Part shown: in pieces, positions 3,015 to 32,711 of the stretch
Layout: every line of letters starts with the position of its first letter
Position numbering within the stretch: the first letter of the stretch is position 1
Source of the DNA: a virus
Direction: 5' to 3' (one strand)
Virus genome (UHGV): UHGV-0377831
Length of the DNA: 32,832 nucleotides
Notes under the pieces: model-generated
The model's database searches: none
What the model saw: only the letters and a program-made list of their open reading frames with translations
What the model was told of the DNA's origin: nothing
Translations under genes and position numbers: made by a program

Positions 3015-3090
3015 GGCCCTTTAGCTCAGTGGTGAGAGCGAGCGACTCATAATCGCCAGGTCGCTGGTTCAAATCCAGCAAGGGCCACCA
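3015..3090 (+). tRNA. tRNA with anticodon CAU, most similar to tRNA-Ile2 (ileX/ileZ type); tRNA-Met not excluded
   Basis: Cloverleaf: acceptor GGCCCTT/AAGGGCC, D-stem GCTC/GAGC, anticodon loop CTCATAA, T-loop TTCAAAT, encoded CCA. Near-identical to E. coli ileX as I recall it. Confidence 0.88.
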
Positions 3091-3097
3091 TCACATA

Positions 3098-3174
3098 CCG
3101 CCATTAGCTCATCAGGAAAGAGCGCCAGCCTTCGAAGCTGGCTGCGCGGGGTTCAAGTCCCCGATGGCGGTCCA
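3098..3174 (+). tRNA. tRNA-Arg (anticodon UCG)
   Basis: Acceptor CCGCCAT/ATGGCGG, anticodon stem CCAGC/GCTGG with loop CTTCGAA, T-arm CGGGG-TTCAAGT-CCCCG, encoded CCA. Confidence 0.85.
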
Positions 3175-3187
3175 TTATCTGCATCAT

Positions 3188-3264
3188 GCGTTGTTAGCTC
3201 AGCCGGACAGAGCAATTGCCTTCTAAGCAATCGGTCACTGGTTCGAATCCAGTACAGCGCGCCA
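3188..3264 (+). tRNA. tRNA-Arg (anticodon UCU, decodes rare AGA/AGG)
   Basis: Acceptor GCGTTGT/ACAGCGC, anticodon stem ATTGC/GCAAT with loop CTTCTAA, T-arm ACTGG-TTCGAAT-CCAGT, encoded CCA. Same Ile/Arg/Arg tRNA trio and position as in Stx-type lambdoid phages. Confidence 0.88.
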
Positions 3265-3895: not shown

Positions 3896-4120
3896 CCGGG
3901 TATCAGTTAGCGGGAGAAATTTTTAAATACTTCACAATTCAGGCGGTTGACTGTTGTCTGGTTTGCGGGGAGTTTGTTAAAAGAAACTGGCATGGTGAAT
4001 CCCCCTGTGCGGAGGGGCAATCAGCGAGTAGGTATATGGGATAATCGCGGATTCAGGTGCTGGTACTGAATTCACCGGGAGGCACCCGGCACCATGCAAT
4101 GGCACATAGCGCCACTCTCC

Positions 4121-4150
4121 AGCCCCTCTCCGGAGGGGCTGTTTATATTG
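4121..4150 (+). terminator. Strong hairpin with T-rich tail (rho-independent terminator-like)
   Basis: Perfect 8-bp stem AGCCCCTC/GAGGGGCT with loop TCCG, followed by GTTTATATTGATTTTG. A related weaker hairpin (CCCCT...AGGGG) lies at 4002-4017. Confidence 0.55.
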
Positions 4151-4771: not shown

Positions 4772-4960
4772 ATGGCATTTAAACACTATGATGTTGTCAG
4801 GGCGGCGTCGCCGTCAGATCTTGCGGAAAAGCTGACACATAAACTGAAAGAGGGCTGGCAGCCGTTTGGTAGTCCGGTGGCCATAACCCCTTATACCCTG
4901 ATGCAGGCGATTGCAGCAGAAGGTGATGTGGTGGTCAGTGGTGCAACTGAGCCGGAGTGA
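4772..4960 (+). CDS. Small DUF1737-like phage protein
   Basis: 62-aa product MAFKHYDVVRAASPSDLAEKLTHKLKEGWQPFG... resembles the DUF1737 domain found alone or at the N-terminus of NanS-p esterases next to the lysis genes of Stx-type prophages (from memory). An alternative ATG lies at 4757. Confidence 0.6.
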   Translation: MAFKHYDVVRAASPSDLAEKLTHKLKEGWQPFGSPVAITPYTLMQAIAAEGDVVVSGATEPE

Positions 4961-5118
4961 TACTACGTCATCGTACTGGCCCGGCATTCCAGGCCATAAA
5001 AGACGGTCTGGCAGTGGGACTAAATGCACTGACGCTGACGGATATTACCAAAAATGCAACGTATGGCGTTGAGATGGAAAGTCTGGTGCTGGAGATAAAT
5101 GCACCGGCATCATCATAA
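4957..5118 (+). CDS. Possible small ORF (53 aa, GTG start) between the DUF1737-like gene and the holin
   Basis: Open frame ending at TAA 5116-5118; no ATG start and no clear RBS; may be a remnant or a small late-region ORF. Confidence 0.2.
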
Positions 5119-5267
5119 AAAGTGAGCCAGTCAAATGGAAGGTATCGTTAAACTCACCGGTAGTGTCAGTGGGTCGTCTGAGACGCCTGCATGAGTTATC
5201 AGAGCCATCAGTACTTAACTGGTGGCTTTTTTATTGTTGTCAGCTTCCGGATAACGGGAGACGGGGT

Positions 5268-5483
5268 ATGTACCAGATGGAAAAAATCACAACAGGTGTG
5301 TCATACACCACGTCAGCGGTGGGAACGGGCTACTGGTTCCTGCAGTTGCTGGACAGGGTTTCCCCGTCTCAGTGGGCGGCAATAGGCGTGCTGGGGAGTC
5401 TGCTGTTTGGGCTGCTGACATATCTGACTAACCTGTATTTCAAAATCAAAGAGGACCGGCGTAAGGCGGCGCGGGGAGAGTAA
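5268..5483 (+). CDS. S: Class II holin (pinholin), phage 21 S type, with dual-start motif
   Basis: [71 protein letters not shown] matches S21/Stx-phage holins; two Met codons (M1, M4) typical of holin/antiholin dual starts. The upstream extension in the ORF track (5163-5267) is probably not translated. Confidence 0.9.
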
Positions 5484-5487
5484 AGTG

Positions 5488-6378
5488 ATGAATAAAAAAT
5501 ATGAACTGGTTGTTAAGGGGATAAATAATTACGGGGATAAGGTTACTGTTACTGTGAAGCCGGAAGGTGACGGGCAAGCGTCGCTGTTGTTGCCAGATGT
5601 GGCGATTAGTCTTGACCGTACTGAAGGTGCCACGCTGGAGTTTTACGAAGCTGAGGCGAAAAAGCAGGCGAAGCAGTTTTTCATGGATGTTGCTGCCGGG
5701 TTATGTGAAGGGGATGGTCCGTTGCCGGAAAAGCGCCCCGTAATTTTAGAGGCGCAGGATGTGTTGATAACCTACAAAGGAAAGCTACCGGGAAGAATTA
5801 CTTGTTCTCTGAAGATGCCGCCGTCAACACTGCGGTCAGAAAAAGATGATGTTGAATCACGTATTGAAAAACTGGAGAGCTACGTCGTTGAGCTGAATAA
5901 GAAATGGTCGATATTGGTGCCTTCTGGCGATGAAAAGCAGTTTGCTGCGTTTGACGATTATTGTCGGAAAGTGATGAGCAGAAATCTCGCAGAGTGTTTC
6001 AGTATTCATAATGATAATTTCAGTGACCCGGAATGGGAGTGTAACCGGCCATCCTTTGTTGTATCCGGTGATGCTGGGAAAATAACCATCTCAGAAAATG
6101 GGAAAGTAACACCTCCATCGCACCAGCACAGTGAGGAGCTCATTGAATTTGCCATTGATTACCTGAAGAACAATAAAAAGCAGGGGCTGATGAAGCGCGT
6201 TGGCCGTTGCATGGGATATCTGCAGGTAGCTGCTGAGATTGAAGCGCTGGCCAGTGGTGCTGATAAGGATGCAATTGTGCGGGAGGCTCTTCTTCGTGAT
6301 TTTAATACTCCACCCTTTAAAAAAGTGCCGGCTTACTGGCTTCATCCGGGGCTGACTTATCTTAAAGTGCGTATTTAG
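5488..6378 (+). CDS. Hypothetical 296-aa soluble protein inserted between holin and endolysin
   Basis: ATG at 5488 (GTG at 5485) with a GGGGAGAG RBS 8 nt upstream; starts 4 nt after the holin stop; no signal peptide, transmembrane segment or recognisable catalytic motif; AT-rich 5' end. Confidence 0.7.
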   Translation: MNKKYELVVKGINNYGDKVTVTVKPEGDGQASLLLPDVAISLDRTEGATLEFYEAEAKKQAKQFFMDVAAGLCEGDGPLPEKRPVILEAQDVLITYKGKLPGRITCSLKMPPSTLRSEKDDVESRIEKLESYVVELNKKWSILVPSGDEKQFAAFDDYCRKVMSRNLAECFSIHNDNFSDPEWECNRPSFVVSGDAGKITISENGKVTPPSHQHSEELIEFAIDYLKNNKKQGLMKRVGRCMGYLQVAAEIEALASGADKDAIVREALLRDFNTPPFKKVPAYWLHPGLTYLKVRI

Positions 6379-15219: not shown

Positions 15220-15567
15220 ATGGTGACGAAAACCATCACTGAACAGCGTGCGGAAGTACGTATTTTTGCCGGTAATGATCCGGCTCATACCGCCACAGGC
15301 AGCAGCGGGATTTCTTCTGCAACACCGGCTCTGACGCCCCTGATGCTGGATGAAGCCACCGGGAAACTGGTGGTCTGGGATGGACAGAAAGCCGGTAGTG
15401 CGGTTGGCATACTGGTACTGCCGCTTGAAGGCACAGAGACAGCGCTGACGTATTACAAGTCGGGAACCTTTGCGACGGAGGCAATCCACTGGCCTGAAAG
15501 TGTGGATGAACACAAAAAGGCAAATGCCTTTGCCGGCACAGCCCTGAGTCACGCGGCTCTGCCGTAA
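15220..15567 (+). CDS. D: Head decoration protein D
   Basis: 115 aa aligning with lambda gpD (DPAHTAT..., LTPLMLD..., VGILV..., YKSGTF..., AFAGTA). Confidence 0.93.
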   Translation: MVTKTITEQRAEVRIFAGNDPAHTATGSSGISSATPALTPLMLDEATGKLVVWDGQKAGSAVGILVLPLEGTETALTYYKSGTFATEAIHWPESVDEHKKANAFAGTALSHAALP

Positions 15568-23601: not shown

Positions 23602-24345
23602 ATGACACAGACTGAATCAGCGATTCTGGCACATGCCCGGCGGTGTGCGCCTGCGGAGTCGTGCGGCTTCGTGATAAGCACGCCGGAGGGGGAGTGGTAT
23701 ATCCCTTGTGTGAATATTTCCGCGGAGCCGGAGGCGTATTTTCGTATCGCACCGGAAGACTGGCTGCGGGCAGAGATGCAGGGGGAGATTGTGGCACTGG
23801 TCCACAGTCATCCCGGTGGGCTGCCCTGGCTGAGCGAGGCTGACCGGCGGCTGCAGATAAAAAGCGCACTGCCCTGGTGGCTGGTCTGCCGGGGTGACAT
23901 TCACAAATTCCGCTGTGTGCCACATCTGACGGGACGGCGCTTTGAGCACGGGGTGACGGACTGTTACACGCTGTTCCGGGATGCTTATCATCTGGCGGGG
24001 ACTGAAATGCCGGATTTTCATCGCGAGGATGACTGGTGGCGCAACGGCCAGAACCTTTACCTGGACAATATGGCGGTCACCGGCTTTTACCGGGTGCCCC
24101 TGTCCTCTGCACAGGCGGGCGATATTCTGCTGTGCTGCTTTGGTGCTTCGGTACCGAACCATGCCGCCATTTACTGCGGTAACGGTGAGCTGCTTCACCA
24201 TCTGCCTGAACAACTGAGTAAACGGGAGAGGTATTCCGAAAAATGGCAACGACGAACGCATTCTGTCTGGCGTCACCGCCACTGGCACGCATCTGCCTTC
24301 ACGGGGATTTACAACGATTTGGCCGCCGCCTCAGCCTGTATGTGA
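23602..24345 (+). CDS. K: Tail assembly protein K (NlpC/P60-like peptidase)
   Basis: Aligns with lambda gpK from MTQTESAILAHARRCAPAESCGFV...; the longer track ORF (from 23341) is an upstream frame extension. Confidence 0.95.
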   Translation: MTQTESAILAHARRCAPAESCGFVISTPEGEWYIPCVNISAEPEAYFRIAPEDWLRAEMQGEIVALVHSHPGGLPWLSEADRRLQIKSALPWWLVCRGDIHKFRCVPHLTGRRFEHGVTDCYTLFRDAYHLAGTEMPDFHREDDWWRNGQNLYLDNMAVTGFYRVPLSSAQAGDILLCCFGASVPNHAAIYCGNGELLHHLPEQLSKRERYSEKWQRRTHSVWRHRHWHASAFTGIYNDLAAASACM

Positions 24346-24923
24346 ACACGGCAGCGGAAGCCATTCGCGCCCTGTCGATGCAGATGCCGGGCTTTCGCCG
24401 TCAGATGAACGAAGGCTGGTACCAGATACGTATTGCCGGTGATGACACGGCACCGGAGGCGGTGTACGCCCGTCTTCACGAACAGCTGGGTGAGGGAACG
24501 GTCATCCACATTGTGCCGCGACTGGCCGGGGCCGGAAAGGGTGGACTGCAGATTGTGCTGGGGGCGGCAGCCATCGTGGGCTCTTTCTTCACTGCCGGTG
24601 CCTCGATGGCGTTATGGGGTACAGCCCTGAGTGCCGGCGGTTTTTCTGCCACCACAATGCTGTTTTCACTGGGTGCCAGCATGATACTGGGCGGTGTGGC
24701 CCAGATGCTGGCCCCGAAGGCAAAAACACCGGATTACCGCGCAACGGATAACGGCAGACAGAACACGTACTTTTCCTCGCTGGATAACATGATTGCCCAG
24801 GGGAACCCGATGCCGGTGCCTTACGGGGAAATGCTGGTTGGCTCCCGCCGTATATCCCAGGACATCAGCACCCGTGATGAAGGCGGGGGCGGAAAGGTCG
24901 TGGTTATCGGGCGGCAGGGGTAA
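24243..24923 (+). CDS. I: Tail assembly protein I
   Basis: 226 aa aligning with lambda gpI (…ARICL.GDLQRFGRR..L.V.T.AEAIRAL..Q.P.FR...); overlaps the end of K as in lambda. Confidence 0.93.
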   Translation: MATTNAFCLASPPLARICLHGDLQRFGRRLSLYVNTAAEAIRALSMQMPGFRRQMNEGWYQIRIAGDDTAPEAVYARLHEQLGEGTVIHIVPRLAGAGKGGLQIVLGAAAIVGSFFTAGASMALWGTALSAGGFSATTMLFSLGASMILGGVAQMLAPKAKTPDYRATDNGRQNTYFSSLDNMIAQGNPMPVPYGEMLVGSRRISQDISTRDEGGGGKVVVIGRQG

Positions 24924-24930
24924 AAAGAAT

Positions 24931-24969
24931 AAAAAAATCCCGCAGTGATCGCGGACAGGAACTGCGGGA
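24931..24969 (-). terminator. Hairpin preceded by A7 on the plus strand (terminator-like on the minus strand)
   Basis: 9-bp stem TCCCGCAGT/ACTGCGGGA with a 14-nt loop; on the minus strand the hairpin is followed by U7. Confidence 0.4.
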
Positions 24970-25136
24970 GAGTTACGAAGATTAAGTGTAAGGAATTATT
25001 CTTATATCACGACAAAAAAATTAACGCAGAGAAATTATACGCGCCACAGTCAGTTTGTGAAAATGTGAAGATATTCAGAATTTTTATGCCATTACCGGTT
25101 TTAACCAACAGGATTATCGGTGGGCATGAAAGAAAA

Positions 25137-25169
25137 CCCCGGTATCTGCTGATACCGGGGTTTCTCTTT
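25137..25169 (+). terminator. Perfect 10-bp hairpin with flanking A- and T-rich tracts (bidirectional terminator-like) in the I-J spacer
   Basis: CCCCGGTATC-TGCT-GATACCGGGG followed by TTTCTCTTT and preceded by GAAAGAAAA. Confidence 0.5.
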
Positions 25170-25266
25170 AGCATGGCAGAAATGTGTTTCATGCTTTTCG
25201 GGCGAAGGATATCCGACTTCTGTACGGAATGGCAAGTGGCGGTTAATTTATTCAGGGGAAGGCTGT

Positions 25267-28200
25267 ATGGGAAAAGGTGGCGGTAAGGCACACACGCCTC
25301 GTGAGGCGAAGGATAATCTCAAATCCACGCAGATGATGAGCGTGATTGATGCGATTGGTGAGGGACCGATAGAAGGTCCGGTGAAGGGACTGCAGAGTAT
25401 CCTGGTGAACAAAACCCCGCTGACGGACACGGACGGTAATCCCGTGATACACGGTGTGACGGCGGTCTGGCGCGCCGGGGAGCAGGAGCAGACACCACCG
25501 GAAGGCTTTGAGTCCTCCGGTGCTGAAACCGGACTGGGCGTGGAAGTGACGAAGGCAAAACCGGTGACGCGCACCATTACGTCCGCGAACATTGACCGCC
25601 TGCGGGTTACCTTCGGGGTGCAGTCACTGGTGCAGACCACGTCAAAGGGCGACCGTAATCCTTCCTCTGTCCGGATTCTGATTCAGTTACAGCGTAATGG
25701 CCGCTGGGTGACGGAAAAGGATGTCACCATTAACGGCAAGACCACCTCGCAGTTCCTGGCCTCGGTGATTCTGGATAATCTGCCTCCCCGGCCCTTTAAC
25801 ATCCGGATGGTCAGGGAGACGGCGGACAGCACCACGGACCAGCTGCAGAATAAGACGCTGTGGTCGTCATACACCGAAATCATCGATGTGAAACAGTGCT
25901 ACCCGAACACGGCCATTGTGGGGCTGCAGGTGGATGCGGAGCAGTTCGGCGGCCAGCAGATGACGGTGAACTACCATATCCGCGGTCGCATCATCCAGGT
26001 GCCGTCAAACTATGACCCGGAAAAACGCACGTACAGTGGTATCTGGGACGGCAGTCTGAAACCGGCATACAGCAACAACCCGGCCTGGTGCCTGTGGGAC
26101 ATGCTGACTCACCCGCGCTACGGCATGGGAAAACGTCTGGGGGCGGCGGATGTGGACAAGTGGGCGCTGTATGCCATCGGGCAGTACTGCGACCAGACGG
26201 TCCCGGATGGTTTCGGGGGGACCGAGCCGCGGATGACCTTTAATGCGTACCTGGCACAACAGCGTAAGGCGTGGGACGTTCTCAGTGATTTCTGCTCTGC
26301 GATGCGCTGTATGCCGGTATGGAACGGCCAGACGCTGACGTTCGTTCAGGACCGTCCGTCGGATGTGGTGTGGCCGTACACCAACAGCGATGTGGTGGTG
26401 GATGATAACGGCGTGGGTTTCCGCTACAGCTTCAGTGCCCTGAAGGACCGGCACACGGCAGTGGAGGTGAATTACACCGACCCGCAGAACGGCTGGCAGA
26501 CCTCCACGGAACTGGTGGAAGACCCGGAAGCCATACTGCGCTACGGACGCAACCTGCTGAAGATGGACGCGTTCGGCTGTACCAGCCGCGGTCAGGCCCA
26601 CCGTGCCGGGCTGTGGGTGATAAAGACCGAACTGCTGGAAACGCAGACGGTGGATTTCACGCTCGGGTCACAGGGGCTGCGTCACACACCCGGTGACATC
26701 ATTGAAATCTGTGATAACGACTATGCCGGGACCCTGACCGGCGGACGTGTCCTGTCCATCGATGCCGCCAGCCGTACCCTGACGCTGGACCGGGAGGTGA
26801 CACTGCCGGAGACCGGCACGGCCACTGTTAATCTGATTAACGGCAGCGGTAAGCCGGCGAGCGTGGCCATCACCGCACACCCCGCGCCTGACCGGATACA
26901 GGTCAGCACCCTGCCGGATGGTGTGGAGACATACGGGGTGTGGGGACTCTCCCTGCCGTCACTGCGTCGTCGCCTGTTCCGCTGTGTCTCCATCCGGGAA
27001 AACACGGACGGCACCTTTGCCATCACGGCGGTGCAGCACGTACCTGAAAAAGAAGCCATCGTGGATAACGGGGCCCGCTTTGAGCCGCAGTCAGGCACCC
27101 TGAACAGCGTTATCCCACCGGCAGTGCAGCACCTGACGGTGGAGGTGAGCGCAGCTGACGGCCAGTATCTGGCGCAGGCTAAATGGGACACGCCGCGGGT
27201 GGTGAAGGGCGTGCGCTTCAGTCTGCGCCTGACCAGTGGTAAGGGAACGGATGCCAGACTGGTGACCACCGCCATCACCGCAGACACGGAGCACCGTTTC
27301 AGCGGCCTGCCACTGGGGGAATACACCCTGACGGTGCGGGCCATTAACAGCTACGGCCAGCAGGGCGAACCTGCGACCACCACCTTCCGGATTAACGCGC
27401 CTGCAAAACCCGCCACCATTGAGCTGACGCCGGGGTATTTTCAGATAACGGCGGTCCCGCGTCTTGCGGTGTATGACCCGACGGTACAGTTTGAATTCTG
27501 GTTCTCAGAAAAACGCATCACGAACACGGCACAGGTGGAAAAATCTGCCCGTTATCTGGGGACCGGCAGTCAGTGGACTGTCCAGGGGAGCCGGATTAAG
27601 CCGGGGACGGATTTCTGGTTTTACGTGCGAAGCGTCAACCTGGTGGGAAAATCTGCTTTTGTGGAAGCCAGCGGGCAGCCCAGCAATGATGGTGAAGGGT
27701 ATCTGGAAATTTTCCGGGGGCTGATAGATGAGACGCTTCTGGGCCAGGCACTGAAAGAGCGCATTGATGCTTCAGCGCTGCGTACGGAGGTCACGCAACT
27801 GGAAGAAGATATCCGTCAGCGGATGGACACGGATATCGCAGAAGTGACCCGGAAAATCGGGAAGGCGGAAAACAGCCTCACGCAGCTGGTTGCGAAAAAG
27901 AATGAGGACCAGACACTGGCCATCGCGCAGGTGAGCCAGAAAGTGGACCGGGTGAGCAGTGAAATCTCACAGACTGTCAGCCAGGGGCAGTCAGAAAACG
28001 CCCGACAGATAGCACAGGTCCGCCAGTACGTGGATAAAAAAGGGAGTGAAATTACCTCGACCACGGATAAAAAGCTGGGTGACCAGGCCGTGACCATACA
28101 GCAAATCCAGCGGGTTCAGTCAGACACGCGCAATGAGCTGAATGCCATGTATATGCTGAAGGTGCAGAAAACAAAAAACGGTATTCCCTATGTGGCCGGG

Positions 28201-28959
28201 ATTGGCGCGGGGATTGAGGATGTTGATGGTCAGACGCTGAGCAGTATTCTGCTGCAGGCGGACCGTATCGCGATGATTACCCCGGAGAACGGCAACACCA
28301 CGCCGCTGTTTGTGGCGCAGGGGAATCAGCTGTTCATGAACGACGTGTTCCTGAAGCGACTGTTTGCGGTGAGCATCACGTCATCCGGCAATCCTCCTAC
28401 GTTTTCCCTGACGCCGGATGGCAGGCTGACAGCCCGCAATGCGGATATCAGTGGAGCCATCACGGCGAATACCGGCACGCTCAATAATGTCACCATTAAC
28501 GAGAACTGTGTCATCAGAGGGAAACTGTCTGCAAACCAGATTGAAGGCGATCTCGTTAAAACAGTGGGTAAGGCTTTCCCCCGTGACTCCCGTGCACCGG
28601 AGCGTTGGCCATCAGGAACCATTACCGTCAGGGTTTATGACGATCAGCCGTTTAACCGGCAGATTGTTATTCCGGCGGTGGCTTTCAGCGGTGCCAGACA
28701 TGAGCAGGAGAACAGCGATACTTATTCGTCATGCCGCCTGATAGTGAAGAAAAACGGTGCTGAAATTTATAACCGTACCGCGCTGGATAATACGCTGGTT
28801 TACAGTGGTGTTATTGATATGCCTGCTGGTCGCGGCCACATGACGCTGGAGTTTTCTGTATCAGCATGGTGGGTAAATGGCTGGTATCCCACAGCAAGTA
28901 TCAGCGATTTGCTGGTTGTTGTGATGAAGAAAGCCACTGCAGGCATCACGATTAGCTGA
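25267..28959 (+). CDS. J: Central tail fibre / host specificity protein J
   Basis: 1230 aa; N-terminal ~900 aa are highly similar to lambda gpJ ([22 protein letters not shown]...); a longer coiled-coil-like middle segment and a divergent C-terminal ~150 aa relative to lambda. Confidence 0.95.
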
Positions 28960-29026: not shown

Positions 29027-29626
29027 ATGCGTAAAGTTTGTGCAGCCATTTTGTCCGCAGCCATCTGTCTGTCCGTATCCGGTGCGCCTGCATGGGCGTC
29101 TGAACATCAGTCCACACTGAGCGCGGGGTATCTTCATGCCCGTACGAACGCTCCCGGCAGCGATAATCTGAACGGGATTAACGTGAAATACCGTTATGAG
29201 TTTACGGACGCGCTGGGGCTGATTACGTCCTTCAGTTATGCCAATGCTGAGGATGAGCAAAAAACGCACTACAGCGATACCCGCTGGCATGAAGATTCCG
29301 TGCGTAACCGCTGGTTCAGCGTGATGGCGGGGCCGTCTGTACGCGTGAATGAATGGTTCAGCGCGTATGCGATGGTGGGTGTGGCTTACAGCCGTGTGTC
29401 GACTTTCTCCGGGGATTATCTCCGCGTAACTGACAACAAGGGGAAAACGCACGATGTGCTGACCGGAAGTGATGACGGTCGCCACAGCAACACGTCTCTG
29501 GCGTGGGGGGCTGGCGTGCAGTTTAACCCGACCGAATCCGTAACCATTGACCTTGCTTATGAAGGTTCCGGTAGTGGCGACTGGCGAACGGATGCATTTA
29601 TTGTTGGTATCGGATACCGTTTCTGA
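29027..29626 (+). CDS. lom: Outer membrane protein Lom (Ail/Lom/PagC family beta-barrel)
   Basis: 199 aa with signal peptide; aligns with lambda Lom (GINVKYRYE.TD..., …AYEGSGSGDWRTD.FIVG.GY.F). Confidence 0.92.
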   Translation: MRKVCAAILSAAICLSVSGAPAWASEHQSTLSAGYLHARTNAPGSDNLNGINVKYRYEFTDALGLITSFSYANAEDEQKTHYSDTRWHEDSVRNRWFSVMAGPSVRVNEWFSAYAMVGVAYSRVSTFSGDYLRVTDNKGKTHDVLTGSDDGRHSNTSLAWGAGVQFNPTESVTIDLAYEGSGSGDWRTDAFIVGIGYRF

Positions 29627-29731: not shown

Positions 29732-29766
29732 AGCCCGTGGCGTCACTGCTGCGGGCTTTTTTTATT
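29732..29766 (+). terminator. Rho-independent terminator after lom
   Basis: AGCCCG...CGGGCT hairpin followed by TTTTTTTATT. Confidence 0.55.
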
Positions 29767-29777
29767 GGTGGAAAAGT

Positions 29778-32711
29778 ATGACAGTAAAAATTTCTGGCGT
29801 GCTTAAAGATGGCACAGGAAAACCAGTACAGAACTGCACCATTGTGCTGAAGGCCAGACGAACCAGCAGCACGGTGGTGGTGAACACGGTGGCCTCTGAA
29901 AATCCGGATGAAGCCGGACGTTACAGCATGGATGTTGAGCATGGCCAGTACAGCGTCACCCTGCTGGTTGAAGGTTTTCCGCCTTCACATGCCGGGACCA
30001 TTACCGTCTATGAAGGTTCCAGACCAGGTACGCTGAATGATTTTCTCGGTGCCATGACGGAAGATGATGTCATGCCGGAGGCACTGCGCCGCTTTGAGCA
30101 GATGGTGGAAGAGGTGTCACGTAACGCCTCCGCGGTTGCACAGAATACGGCAGCCGCGAAAAAATCAGCCAGCGATGCCAGTGCATCAGCCAGCGAGGCG
30201 GCAACTCATGCAACCGATGCTGCAGCCTCAGCACGTGCCGCCAGCACGTCAGCCGGACAGGCCGCGTCGTCGGCTCAGTCAGCGTCTTCCAGCGCAGGAA
30301 CGGCATCGACAAAGGCCCGTGAAGCAGCAAAAAGTGCTGCTGCTGCAGAGTCATCAAAAAGCGCGGCAGCTACCAGCGCCAGTGCCGCGAAAACGTCAGA
30401 AACGAATGCCGCAGCATCACAAAAATCGGCAGCCACTTCTGCATCCACAGCGACCACGAAGGCGTCAGAAGCTGCCACCTCGGCACGGGGTGCGGCGGCC
30501 TCAAAAGAGGCAGCGAAATCTTCAGAAACGAATGCATCATCAAGTGCCAGTAGTGCAGCTTCCTCGGCAACGGCGGCAGGAAATTCCGCGAAGGCGGCAA
30601 AAACGTCCGAGACGAACGCTAAGTCTTCTGAAACAGCAGCGGGACAGAGCGCCTCAGCTGCGGCAGGTTCAAAAACAGCGGCTGCATTATCTGCCAGTGC
30701 CGCGTCAACAAGTGCCGGGCAGGCCTCAGCCAGTGCCACCGCCGCCGGAAAATCGGCAGAAAGCGCCGCATCATCCGCTTCAACAGCCACAACGAAGGCT
30801 GGCAAAGCCACTGAGCAAGCCACTGCAGCAGCGAGGTCTGCTTCTGCAGCAAAAACCTCTGAAACAAATGCAAAGACTTCAGCAGACAATGCTGCTTCCT
30901 CTAAGGCGGCAGCCGCATCGTCAGCCAGTTCAGCGGCGTCATCGGCATCATCTGCGTCTGCTTCAAAAGATGAGGCGACCAGACAAGCGTCAGCAGCGAA
31001 AGGTAGTGCCACGACAGCAACAACGAAAGCATCAGAGGCGGCAGGCAGTGCGACGGCGGCATCTCAGAGCAAAGTTGCTGCTGAATCCGCGGCAACGCGT
31101 GCCGAAACAGCGGCAAAACGGGCAGAGGATATTGCATCCGCCGTGGGGCTTGAGGATGCGAGCACGACGAAAAAGGGGATAGTACAGCTCAGCAGTGCAA
31201 CAAACAGCACCAGTGAAAAGCTGGCGGCAACGCCAAAGGCAGTTAAAACTGTTAAAGATAGTTCAGTTCAAAAAACTGGCGACACAATGGGAGGGCAGTT
31301 AAAAATCAGCACGATAAATGCTCTTCGAATATTCAACCAAGCCTTTGGCCTTATTTTTAGGCGTTCCGAAGATTATCTTCATCTTATTCCGACTAATGAA
31401 GGGGAGGGGGAAAATGGAGACATCGGTTCATTAAGACCATTCTCTATAAACTTAAGATCAGGGTTGGTGTCCATCGGTAATGGACTAAAAGTTGGTGGTA
31501 GTGTTACTGGTAATTTGACCGGAAACGCAGATACTGCGACCAAGATCAAGACAGCACGTAAGATTGGGGGCGTGGCATTTGATGGATCGGCAGATATCAA
31601 CTTGCCTGGAGTCAACGCTACCGGTAATCAAAACACTACAGGTAATGCTGCGACCGCCACGAAACTTCAGGCAGCCAGAACGATTAACGGTGTGTCATTT
31701 GATGGTAGTGCAAATATCACATTGACCCCTTCAAATATTGGGGCATTGGCATTAACTGGAGGGACTCTTTCAGGTGGTTTAACTGCTGCTGGTGAGGTTA
31801 TTTCAAGGTCAGCAAATGGTCTGCGTATTGCCTATGGCAACTATGGATTCTTTATCCGAAATGATGGATCAAACACATATTTTATGTTGACAGATTCGGG
31901 TAACAGTCTTGGTACGCACAATAGCTTAAGGCCGTTTATAATTAGTAACCATACTGGCAATGTTACAATTGCAACTAAATTAAACGCGAGTGGTGGTATC
32001 ACTGGATCTTTATCGGGTAATGCAAGCACAGCAACCAAATTGCAAACTGCAAGGACAATTAACGGCGTAAAATTTGACGGCTCGGCAAATATTGAAGCGT
32101 TTCCGCCAGGTGTTCCGCTGCCGTGGCCATCAGATACACCACCTGCAGGTTATGCAATCATGCAGGGGCAGACGTTTGATAAGGCAGCATATCCGAAACT
32201 GGCTATTGCCTATCCTTCAGGTGTTATTCCAGATATGCGCGGCTGGACAATCAAGGGCAAACCCGCCAGTGGCCGGGCCGTATTGTCTCAGGAACGGGAC
32301 GGCATAAAATCGCACACCCACAGCGCCAGCGCATCCAGTACGGATTTGGGGACGAAAACCACATCGTCGTTTGATTACGGTACTAAAACGACCAGTTCAT
32401 TTGATTACGGCACAAAAACTACGAATAGCGCTGGAAATCATTCACACAATATACCTGTTGGTCACACTGGCGCGGGGAATGGTGTATCAGCCGGTTATAA
32501 CGCTGCGTTAGGTACTGGTACCACGTCGAGCGCAGGCGAGCATGCTCACAATGTATATATCGGTGCCCATAACCACACTATCGGCATTGGTGCTCATGCC
32601 CATTCTGTCATTATTGGTCCCCACGGACACACCATCACCGTTAACGCTACGGGTAACGAAGAAAACACCGTAAAAAACATCGCATTTAACTATATTGTGA
32701 GGCTTGCATAA
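29778..32711 (+). CDS. stf: Side tail fibre protein Stf (Ala/Ser-rich shaft, phage tail-fibre repeats, His-rich C-terminal domain)
   Basis: N-terminus ([22 protein letters not shown]...) and C-terminus (…[35 protein letters not shown]…[39 protein letters not shown]) align with lambda Stf; the central part carries three copies of a T.ATKL.-AR-I.GV.FDGSA.I repeat. Confidence 0.9.

What the first reader, a model, noticed from the sequence alone, without database searches (positions are those of the whole stretch)
24924..25266. 343-bp AT-rich insert between tail genes I and J, flanked by two strong hairpins
In lambda, I and J are separated by only a few tens of bp. Here the spacer is 343 bp, lower in GC, and contains a 9-bp-stem hairpin (24938-24969) that would act as a terminator on the minus strand, and a perfect 10-bp-stem hairpin (25137-25160) flanked by A- and T-rich tracts. 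No convincing protein ORF lies between them. The arrangement suggests a small non-coding RNA gene, a miniature inserted element, or the scar of a lost moron.
Basis: seen in the sequence. Interest (0 to 1): 0.45.

Follow-up and report, generated by a model that had tools for sequence, protein, structure and literature searches.

The report
Prophage small RNA gene (PasB family)
The extra DNA between tail genes I and J holds a small regulatory RNA gene read backwards from its own promoter; it is a diverged copy of the known prophage sRNA PasB/EcOnc22-24, so the finding is real but largely already explained.

Summary
Gene I stops at 24923 and J starts at 25267.

The left half (24931-25090) is a complete minus-strand sRNA gene:
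- a near-consensus sigma-70 promoter (TTCACA-16-TATAAT, 25061..25034);
- a predicted 97-nt transcript (25027 to 24931);
- an intrinsic terminator, which is hairpin 1 plus seven U.

It sits in the same slot and orientation as two sRNAs validated by Northern blot and dependent on Hfq: PasB of EPEC E2348/69 and EcOnc22-24 of EHEC Sakai. It shares their promoter block, terminator and single-stranded core (UUAAUCUUC). The RNA body is only 74% identical to PasB. A covariance model built without window-like alleles finds it at 67.9 bits, E = 2e-10.

The right half (about 25095-25266) is a separately assorting cassette, at least 99% identical in 1,442 E. coli records. Its 16-pair hairpin 2 looks like a bidirectional terminator. 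It occupies the place of a terminator-like hairpin that precedes J in lambda and in the shorter spacers.

There is no conserved ORF and no dispersed element. Verdict: a new, diverged allele of a known prophage sRNA family, of modest interest.

The parts
24243..24923 (+). Tail assembly gene I (left flank)
   Evidence: Pfam PF06805 Lambda_tail_I, E = 1.8e-16. The stop codon TAA is at 24921-24923.
24931..25027 (-). Predicted PasB-family sRNA. The primary transcript is 97 nt from G25027 to the last U at 24931. The 5' end equivalent to the published 83-nt EPEC species would be T25014, giving 84 nt.
   Evidence: The promoter is placed and the terminator. The covariance model R1, built from 10 non-window-type alleles, matches 24929-25027 (-) over its full length at 67.9 bits, E = 1.9e-10. 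The EPEC PasB Northern probe matches 24936-24958 with 3 mismatches, against 0 expected by chance. Alignments to E2348/69 and Sakai are.
24931..24969 (-). Intrinsic terminator of the sRNA: hairpin 1 (24938-24969) followed by U7 (24937..24931 on the minus strand)
   Evidence: Sequence and terminator scan. RNAalifold keeps only this stem across 20 alleles, with 7 invariant pairs. The EPEC PasB 3' end is annotated at the last U of the same run.
24975..24997 (-). Conserved single-stranded core of the sRNA, AAUUCCUUACACUUAAUCUUCGU (UUAAUCUUC = 24985..24977); the candidate seed
   Evidence: These are the most conserved unpaired columns in alignments of 37 to 47 alleles. They are unpaired in the consensus structure. 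Zhu et al. 2026 place the PasB seed just upstream of the terminator.
25034..25061 (-). Sigma-70 promoter of the sRNA: -35 TTCACA (25061..25056), 16-nt spacer, -10 TATAAT (25039..25034)
   Evidence: The promoter scan gives 11 of 12 matches. The -10 position is conserved in all alleles as TATAAT, AATAAT, TATCAT, GATAAT or GATAAA.
25064..25079 (.). Conserved dyad TGTGA-N6-TCAGA upstream of the -35, resembling CRP half-sites; likely a regulator-binding site
   Evidence: It is present in 110 of 110 intact PasB loci that were located only by their terminator. It carries 5 different central spacers and lies at a fixed 24 (+/-1) nt from the -10.
25095..25266 (.). 'Module B': a separately assorting cassette between the sRNA promoter block and J
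   Evidence: It is at least 99% identical in 1,442 E. coli records. It is joined to at least 3 different PasB alleles and replaced by 83-93-nt modules in others. Homology to the E2348/69 and Sakai spacers ends here.
25131..25167 (.). Hairpin 2: perfect 10-bp core (25137-25160) extended to 16 pairs, with an A-run before it and a T-rich run after it, so it looks like a terminator on both strands
   Evidence: Sequence and folds (z = -4.1 and -5.3). Its positional analogues are the pre-J hairpins in lambda and in the short-type spacers, which show one compensatory pair.
25206..25235 (-). Weak promoter-like site TTGCCA-18-TATCCT. With hairpin 2 as terminator it could give a transcript of about 72 nt (25199 to 25128). 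Speculative.
   Evidence: The promoter scan gives 9 of 12 matches. No expression evidence was found.
25267..28959 (+). Tail tip / host-specificity gene J (right flank)
   Evidence: Seven GpJ Pfam domains, E values from 1e-25 to 1e-41.

Best explanation
The I-J spacer is a two-part insertion.

Part 1 (24931-25090) is an sRNA moron, a self-contained minus-strand gene. It has a conserved upstream dyad, a sigma-70 promoter, an RNA of 84-97 nt and an intrinsic terminator with U7 that ends 8 nt after the stop codon of I. It is a diverged allele of the PasB / EcOnc22-24 family.

By homology (inferred, not shown for this allele), the host RNA polymerase transcribes it in the lysogen independently of the silent late operon. 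The RNA is bound and stabilised by Hfq through its terminator U-tract. It acts in trans by pairing its single-stranded core (around UUAAUCUUC, preceded by the anti-Shine-Dalgarno-like UUCCUU) with host and accessory mRNAs.

On the late-mRNA strand, hairpin 1 is preceded by A7 rather than followed by U's. It therefore does not terminate I-to-J transcription.

Part 2 (about 25095-25266) is an exchangeable cassette whose long hairpin 2 is the positional equivalent of the terminator-like hairpin found just upstream of J in lambda and in the short-type spacers. It most likely acts as a terminator or insulator. On the + strand it would stop transcripts not modified by Q before J. On the - strand it would shield the sRNA promoter. 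It could also act as an RNA-stability stem. This part is the least certain.
For: Anatomy:
- The promoter scores 11 of 12 and a minus-strand terminator is found.

Same slot and orientation as known sRNAs:
- PasB is annotated at NC_011601.1 1466343..1466261 (-), 83 nt, between E2348C_1436 and E2348C_1437 (Table S6 of PMC8550237).
- RefSeq places I's end at 1466255 and J's start at 1466496.
- The EcOnc22/23/24 Northern probe matches the Sakai Sp15 I-J spacer.

Homology:
- The promoter block and terminator are nearly identical, and the RNA body is 74% identical.
- A chain of 37 alleles links the types.
- The model R1, built without window-type alleles, hits at 67.9 bits, E = 1.9e-10.

Published evidence on homologues:
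- Northern bands of about 83 nt (EPEC) and about 85 nt (EHEC).
- The RNA is destabilised without hfq. A DESeq2 fold-change of -6.8 and -2.4 appears in two sheets of Table S2; I read these as the delta-hfq comparisons, but the column headers were not seen.
- 37 RIL-seq interactions and a 7-U tract.
- Expression is higher in overnight LB than in DMEM.
- In EPEC the flanking I and J mRNAs are almost silent (baseMean 5 and 15, against 482-1082 for PasB).

Conservation pattern:
- It fits an Hfq sRNA: only the terminator is structured and the core is single-stranded.

Pre-J hairpin:
- It is seen in lambda.
- In the short-type spacers 97.8% of cells are paired and there is one compensatory C-G to U-A change.
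- Hairpin 2 has strong fold z-scores.
Against: - No expression, Hfq-binding or target data exist for this allele. All functional statements are transferred from alleles that are 74% identical in the RNA body and differ at several seed-adjacent positions.
- The predicted transcription start (G25027, 97 nt) does not match the published 83-nt 5' end derived from read coverage, so the start site or a processing step is unsettled.
- The terminator stem is invariant, so there is no covariation support. Its 3' arm was also fixed by my search pattern.
- No PasB target has been validated, and the published work reported no common target motif for PasB.
- For hairpin 2, the function is inferred from position only. 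One contig (L099) lacks it through a 47-nt deletion, so it is dispensable at least there.
- Q-modified late transcription would ignore any terminator.
Confidence: 0.85

Rival explanations
1. The sRNA works mainly in cis. It is perfectly complementary to the I-J intercistronic stretch of the late polycistronic mRNA. It could pair with that mRNA, trigger RNase III cleavage or block ribosomes, and so set J (tail tip) expression or suppress leaky tail-gene expression in the lysogen. This would resemble lambda OOP RNA acting on cII.
For: The gene lies wholly inside the late operon in antisense orientation, overlapping the 3' UTR of I. That position is kept in every one of 110 loci. Alleles diverge in sequence yet always remain complementary to their own late mRNA, by construction.
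Against: RIL-seq recovered 37 trans partners for PasB, with typical trans-sRNA features. The paired region is more than 240 nt upstream of the J start in this window, with hairpin 2 between them. A conserved seed-like core across otherwise diverged alleles is not needed for a purely cis-acting antisense RNA.
Confidence: 0.12
2. Module B encodes a second, undescribed minus-strand sRNA of about 72 nt (25199 to 25128). It would use the weak TTGCCA-18-TATCCT promoter and hairpin 2 plus UUUUCUUUC as terminator. The spacer would then be a two-gene sRNA island.
For: There is a promoter-like site scoring 9 of 12. The minus-strand fold has a 5' stem-loop and then a strong terminator, z = -5.3. Other spacers carry a second minus-strand sRNA-like gene in the equivalent position (L017, L057, L080, L052, L047).
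Against: The promoter is weak. Module B is almost invariant, so conservation tells nothing about function. No peak or sRNA other than EcOnc22-24 and PasB was reported in I-J spacers in the EHEC CRAC or EPEC RIL-seq tables I could read. However, neither of those sequenced spacers contains module B. One contig lost the hairpin.
Confidence: 0.12
3. The spacer is a miniature mobile element or the decayed remnant of a lost protein-coding moron, with no present function.
For: The spacer has low GC and a mosaic structure with exchangeable cassettes. An IS3-family element has inserted into the spacer in one contig (L028).
Against: Module B and hairpin 2 occur only in the I-J slot. They are single-copy per prophage. 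No terminal repeats or target duplications were seen at the cassette borders. The promoter, dyad, core and terminator of the sRNA are intact in 110 of 110 loci. Homologues are abundantly expressed.
Confidence: 0.03
4. A small protein is encoded on the + strand opposite the sRNA (MKINVKELF... in EPEC and EHEC alleles), which would make the pair a type I toxin-antitoxin-like module.
For: Twenty-four of 47 alleles have an ATG followed by K-I-N-V-K/M-E-L-F at this site.
Against: The start codon is ACG or ACA in 18 of 47 alleles, including the window. The reading frame ends anywhere from 6 to more than 40 codons, because the T-run length varies. The peptide is hydrophilic, unlike type I toxins. The spacer ORFs have no Pfam hit.
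Confidence: 0.02

Closest known systems
PasB (E2348CN_0006), Hfq-dependent sRNA of prophage PP6 in EPEC O127:H6 E2348/69 (Pearl Mizrahi et al. 2021, PMC8550237; surveyed by Zhu, Shabalina and Storz 2026, bioRxiv 10.64898/2026.05.13.724894)
   Same: It lies in the same I-J spacer, antisense to the tail genes, and ends a few nt after the stop of I. The promoter block and upstream dyad are nearly identical. The terminator 3' half and U7 are identical. It shares the single-stranded UU(A/G)AUCUUC core.
   Different: The RNA body is only 74% identical. The seed-adjacent bases differ (UCCUUACACUUAAUCUUCGUAAC here, UCCUUCACAUUGAUCUUCAUUUG in EPEC). The terminator loop is 14 nt here against 11 nt. With the published survey settings (word size 28, query coverage above 75%) the window allele gives no hit, so it very probably lies outside the published PasB census. 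The EPEC spacer is 240 bp and has a different pre-J module.
EcOnc22 / EcOnc23 / EcOnc24, Hfq-CRAC sRNAs of EHEC O157:H7 Sakai prophages Sp15, Sp14 and Sp11 (Tree et al. 2014, PMC4104026, Table S2)
   Same: The Northern probe matches the Sakai Sp15 I-J spacer on the J-sense strand. It is therefore the same slot, orientation and architecture. The RNA is about 85 nt and is destabilised without hfq.
   Different: It is 74% identical to the window RNA. The papers I read do not link EcOnc22-24 to PasB: Table S6 lists no EHEC homologue for PasB, and the 2026 survey never mentions EcOnc. The published peak coordinates refer to an older genome version, so I tied the RNA to the locus through the probe sequence.
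AgvB / AsxR anti-sRNAs (Rfam RF02702, RF02703) of EHEC lambdoid prophages
   Same: They are prophage-borne, Hfq-binding short RNAs carried as non-coding morons. They have a conserved 3' part and a variable targeting part.
   Different: They have a different sequence, they sit downstream of PR' rather than in the tail operon, and they are 51-60 nt long. No Rfam hit was found in the spacer at gathering or permissive thresholds.
Lambda I-J intercistronic hairpin (NC_001416 15445-15504)
   Same: It is a G+C-rich stem followed by a T-run on the late strand, immediately before the J ribosome-binding site. This is the same position as hairpin 2 and as the short-type hairpin.
   Different: The sequences are unrelated. 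Lambda's spacer is 60 bp with no antisense gene. I found no described function for the lambda hairpin. Hairpin 2 is longer and also looks like a terminator on the opposite strand.

Membership tests
PasB / EcOnc22-24 prophage sRNA family | Located in the spacer between tail genes I and J of a lambdoid prophage, transcribed antisense to them, ending just after the stop codon of I | tested here: met
   The window flanks are Pfam Lambda_tail_I and GpJ. The terminator is at 24931-24969 and I stops at 24923. The geometry is the same in E2348/69 and Sakai Sp15.
PasB / EcOnc22-24 prophage sRNA family | Sequence homology to described members | tested here: met
   A covariance model built from 10 alleles excluding window-type ones hits 24929-25027 (-) over its full length at 67.9 bits, E = 1.9e-10; the next hit has E = 1.4. 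The PasB probe matches with 3 mismatches against 0 expected. Pairwise identity is 74%.
PasB / EcOnc22-24 prophage sRNA family | Own sigma-70 promoter with the conserved upstream block | tested here: met
   TTCACA-16-TATAAT scores 11 of 12. The dyad TGTGA-N6-TCAGA is present in 110 of 110 intact loci at fixed spacing. This is in silico only.
PasB / EcOnc22-24 prophage sRNA family | 3' intrinsic terminator with a long U tract (the Hfq-binding module) | tested here: met
   A 9-bp stem followed by U7. The stem is conserved in 20 of 20 alleles. Table S5 lists a 7-U tract for PasB.
PasB / EcOnc22-24 prophage sRNA family | Discrete RNA of about 83-85 nt, stabilised by Hfq and found in Hfq-bound chimeras | not testable with these tools
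   This is shown only for the EPEC and EHEC alleles. No expression data exist for the window allele.
PasB as delimited in the 2026 survey (blastn, word size 28, query coverage above 75%) | Detectable with the E2348/69 83-nt query under those settings | tested here: not met
   There is no hit at word size 28. At word size 11 only 25 nt align, 30% coverage. This is an operational limit of that survey, not a biological criterion.
Any Rfam family (including AgvB, AsxR, STnc100, IsrG and others) | Covariance-model score at or above the gathering threshold | tested here: not met
   There is no gathering-level hit in 24800-25400. The best permissive hits score 15-20 bits against thresholds of 40-315.
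Type I toxin-antitoxin module | Conserved small hydrophobic ORF opposite or next to the antisense RNA | tested here: not met
   The start codon is absent in 18 of 47 alleles (5 further alleles did not match the test pattern), the stop position varies and the peptide is hydrophilic.
Miniature transposable element / dispersed repeat | Multiple copies at unrelated sites, terminal inverted repeats, target-site duplication | tested here: not met
   Module B occurs only in the I-J slot (113 of 120 IMG/VR hits; the other 7 are unrelated terminators). The '2 places per genome' is the palindrome matching itself. There is no other copy in the window.
CRP-dependent promoter (class II) | 22-bp CRP site centred at -41.5 relative to the transcription start | tested here: inconclusive
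   The half-sites TGTGA and TCAGA match 9 of 10 positions and are invariant. The centre falls at about -44.5 from the predicted start, 3 bp off the canonical position. Higher PasB expression in glucose-free overnight LB than in DMEM fits CRP control but does not show it.

The most novel reading that the evidence does not exclude
The I-J junction of lambdoid prophages may be a dedicated, recombining 'sRNA bay'. A fixed promoter, regulator site and terminator scaffold would carry rapidly diversifying targeting sequences, sometimes as two tandem genes. In this window the invariant module B would encode a second, still undescribed minus-strand sRNA (about 25199 to 25128). The regulatory output of one prophage slot would then be far more diverse than the published PasB census suggests.
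Probability: 0.15. Interest if true: 0.5.

Novelty: new member of a known kind. Interest (0 to 1): 0.27.

Why it matters
About 30% of complete E. coli genomes (1,662 of 5,426) carry a version of this spacer. The exact window version occurs in 633 records, including reference strains such as ATCC 25922. No genome annotation marks any gene there.

Recognising the spacer as a PasB-family sRNA gene has three consequences:
- It explains an otherwise puzzling insertion in the tail operon.
- It ties two separately named sets of RNAs (EcOnc22-24 and PasB) into one family.
- It shows the family is much more diverse than a high-stringency BLAST census could see: at least 37 alleles, down to about 70% identity.

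Because the targeting region differs between alleles, different prophages may rewire different host genes. The invariant upstream dyad points to a shared, testable transcriptional input.

None of this changes current concepts. It extends a known class.

Tried and rejected
- Rfam, at gathering and permissive thresholds: nothing in the spacer. The only strong hits in the window are STnc100 and three tRNAs elsewhere.
- AgvB/AsxR identity, my first recollection: rejected. Those genes lie at the PR' moron site and are 51-60 nt.
- Covariation in the sRNA: none, because the terminator stem is invariant and its 3' arm was fixed by my search pattern.
- Coding potential: the 113-aa and 94-aa spacer ORFs have no Pfam hit. 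The 'MKINVKELF' frame is not conserved.
- Dispersed-repeat idea for module B: rejected.
- Plus-strand promoter that could use hairpin 2 as the terminator of a divergent sRNA: the scan found none. Inspection by eye found only poor hexamers.
- Other transcripts in the EPEC I-J spacer: none listed in the parts of the RIL-seq tables that are held.
- Mapping the published EcOnc22 coordinates directly: unsafe because the genome version differs, so I used the probe sequence instead.
- PasB target lists: I could not extract them from the large table within the look-up cap, and I did not attempt target prediction for the window allele.

Full report
**1. The observation**

The ORF at 24243-24923 matches Pfam Lambda_tail_I. 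The ORF at 25267-28959 carries seven GpJ domains. The spacer is therefore 24924-25266, 343 bp. In lambda itself I ends at 15444 and J starts at 15505, a 60-bp spacer.

GC drops to 0.34-0.46 in the spacer, against 0.53-0.67 around it. Hairpin 2 extends to 16 pairs (25131-25167). The region folds far better than shuffles on both strands, with z = -4.1 and -5.3.

**2. What the left half is**

The consensus scan finds a minus-strand promoter, TTCACA-16-TATAAT (11 of 12 matches), at 25061..25034. It also finds a minus-strand terminator at hairpin 1 followed by seven T. Together these delimit a minus-strand transcript from about G25027 to T24931, 97 nt. Rfam has no family for it.

The literature does describe it:
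- Pearl Mizrahi et al. 2021 (PMC8550237, Table S6) list PasB at NC_011601.1 1466343..1466261 (-), 83 nt, in prophage PP6 between E2348C_1436 and E2348C_1437. The Northern probe is AATCCCGCAGTGATCGCGGAGCT.
- In RefSeq those two genes are the tail assembly protein I (ending at 1466255) and gpJ (starting at 1466496). PasB therefore occupies the same I-J slot in the same antisense orientation.
- The probe matches the window at 24936-24958 with three mismatches, with none expected by chance.
- Tree et al. 2014 (PMC4104026, Table S2) list EcOnc22/23/24 in Sakai prophages Sp15, Sp14 and Sp11. These are about 85 nt by Northern blot and are destabilised in delta-hfq.
- Their probe GGGAGAGAACGATGAAGATTAAC...GAGTTA lies in the Sakai Sp15 I-J spacer.
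- Neither the 2021 table nor the 2026 survey connects PasB with EcOnc22-24.

**3. Homology and diversity**

Alignments of the window with the EPEC and EHEC spacers show three features:
- a nearly identical block covering the -10, the -35 and about 30 nt upstream;
- an identical terminator 3' arm and U7;
- a diverged RNA body.

Identity over the RNA is 74% to each.

An IMG/VR scan anchored only on the terminator 17-mer returned about 110 intact loci. These comprise 47 distinct modules and 37 distinct RNA alleles, and the window allele is the commonest. The allele one base away from EPEC PasB (C27A) corresponds to the 'PasB-2' of Zhu et al.

A covariance model built from ten alleles that exclude all window-like ones finds the window locus over its full length at 67.9 bits, E = 1.9e-10. 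The next hit has E = 1.4.

The 2026 survey used blastn with word size 28 and more than 75% query coverage. Under those settings the EPEC query gives no hit in this window, and at word size 11 only 25 nt align. The window allele, present at 99% identity or more in 633 E. coli records, is therefore very probably outside the published census.

**4. Anatomy of the family**

RNAalifold on 20 diverse alleles keeps only the terminator stem and leaves the body unpaired. The stem is invariant, so there is no covariation evidence. Its 3' arm was also fixed by my search pattern.

The best-conserved unpaired stretch is AAYUCCnUnnnnUURAUCUUYRU (window 24997..24975). This agrees with the seed position proposed by Zhu et al..

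Upstream of the variable -35 lies a dyad, TGTGA-N6-TCAGA (window 25064-25079). It is present in all 110 intact loci, has five different central spacers, and sits a fixed 24 (+/-1) nt from the -10. That pattern is expected of a protein-binding site. The half-sites resemble those of CRP, but the centre falls at about -44.5 from the predicted start, not -41.5.

PasB is reported to be higher in overnight static LB than in exponential DMEM. This fits CRP control but proves nothing.

In EPEC the I and J mRNAs are nearly silent while PasB is abundant. The RNA is therefore made in the lysogen, independently of the late operon.

**5. The right half**

Homology to the EPEC and EHEC spacers ends at about 25095. 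From there to J the window has a cassette ('module B') that is at least 99% identical in 1,442 E. coli records (1,446 genomes have any match). It is found joined to at least three different sRNA alleles.

Other loci have instead an 83-93-nt module with a + strand hairpin, CAGGCAYCC-N4-GGRTGCCTG, followed by TTGTTTTT. In that hairpin 97.8% of cells are paired, and one pair shows a compensatory C-G to U-A change. Only 7 of 500 shuffles reach that level, which is weak but positive evidence.

Lambda's 60-bp spacer also contains a hairpin followed by a T-run just before J. A terminator-like stem before J thus appears to be the ancestral occupant of the junction. Hairpin 2 is its non-homologous counterpart here, and the sRNA gene is inserted between I and that stem.

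Hairpin 2 has an A-run before it and a T-rich run after it, so it resembles a terminator on both strands. Its actual role (insulator, terminator for transcripts not modified by Q, or stability element) is inferred, not shown. One contig has lost it through a 47-nt deletion between short repeats.

Module B is not a dispersed element:
- The second BLAST 'place' per genome is the palindrome hitting itself.
- 113 of 120 IMG/VR contigs with the stem pattern are I-J spacers. The other seven are unrelated terminators with different loops.

**6. Rivals considered**

- **Cis-antisense role.** A role on the late I-J mRNA cannot be excluded, because the RNA is fully complementary to it. The 37 trans partners in RIL-seq and the conserved seed-like core argue that trans action is the main activity.
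- **Second sRNA.** A second minus-strand sRNA in module B (weak promoter at 25235..25206, hairpin 2 as terminator) is possible. Some other spacers carry a second PasB-like gene in tandem at that position. There is no expression evidence for it.
- **Small + strand ORF.** An ORF opposite the seed is not conserved.
- **Longer spacer ORFs.** The 113-aa and 94-aa ORFs have no family match.

**7. Verdict**

However, the RNA belongs to a family known since 2014 and named in 2021.

What is new here is modest:
- this allele is a diverged, apparently uncatalogued member;
- PasB and EcOnc22-24 are the same family;
- the family is far more polymorphic than reported;
- all members share an invariant upstream dyad.

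Interest is low to moderate.

Noticed in passing
window 3961-4150 (+) and 3015-3261 (+): There is a strong Rfam hit to STnc100 (RF02076, 132 bits, E = 4e-29). It lies just downstream of three tRNA genes (3015-3087, 3098-3171, 3188-3261). STnc100 is the relative of PasD discussed by Zhu et al., so this prophage carries at least two Hfq-type sRNA genes about 21 kb apart. The EcOnc05 probe of Tree et al. appears to match this RNA; I compared it by eye only.
   Followed up: partly
window 25064-25079; all PasB loci L003-L122: An invariant dyad, TGTGA-N6-TCAGA, with a variable centre lies 24 nt upstream of the -10 of every intact PasB-family gene (110 of 110). It resembles a CRP site but is centred about 3 bp off the class II position. 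The regulator is unknown.
   Followed up: partly
L052 (matches at 538 and 991), L047 (17-33 and 470-486), L017, L057, L080, L042: Some I-J spacers carry two minus-strand PasB-like genes in tandem, about 450 bp apart. Others carry an extra unit with its own terminator (CTCCCG...CGGGAG followed by a T-run) and an AACUCCUUAA core. The slot can therefore hold more than one sRNA gene.
   Followed up: partly
L028 about 4780-6030: A 1.26-kb IS3-family element (orfA and orfB with a DDE transposase) is inserted in module B, between the sRNA upstream block and hairpin 2. Hairpin 2 is retained at L028 6035-6056.
   Followed up: partly
L099 (spacer module of 139 nt): Here module B lacks hairpin 2 through a 47-nt deletion between short AGAAA repeats. 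This suggests the hairpin is not essential for prophage maintenance.
   Followed up: no
L243 (lambda NC_001416) 15445-15504: Lambda's own 60-bp I-J spacer contains a G+C-rich hairpin (ACCGCC-TGCG-GGCGGT) followed by TTTTG just before the J ribosome-binding site. I found no described function for it.
   Followed up: no
L022, L095, L100 (short-type spacers, just upstream of J): A 7-nt unit (CAGACAT/TCAGACA) is present in two copies in most Sakai-type spacers and in four copies in L022. This is a small length polymorphism close to the J ribosome-binding site.
   Followed up: no
window 29734-29765 (+): A plus-strand intrinsic terminator (AGCCCG...CGGGCT followed by T7) lies after the 199-aa ORF at 29027-29626 and before the long ORF at 29778-32711. 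It weakly matches the 3' part of the PasB model (13.4 bits, E = 1.4). It is probably an ordinary moron terminator.
   Followed up: no
E. coli genome collection: None of the 30 listed RefSeq records annotates any feature under the 343-bp spacer, although about 30% of complete E. coli genomes carry a version of it.
   Followed up: yes
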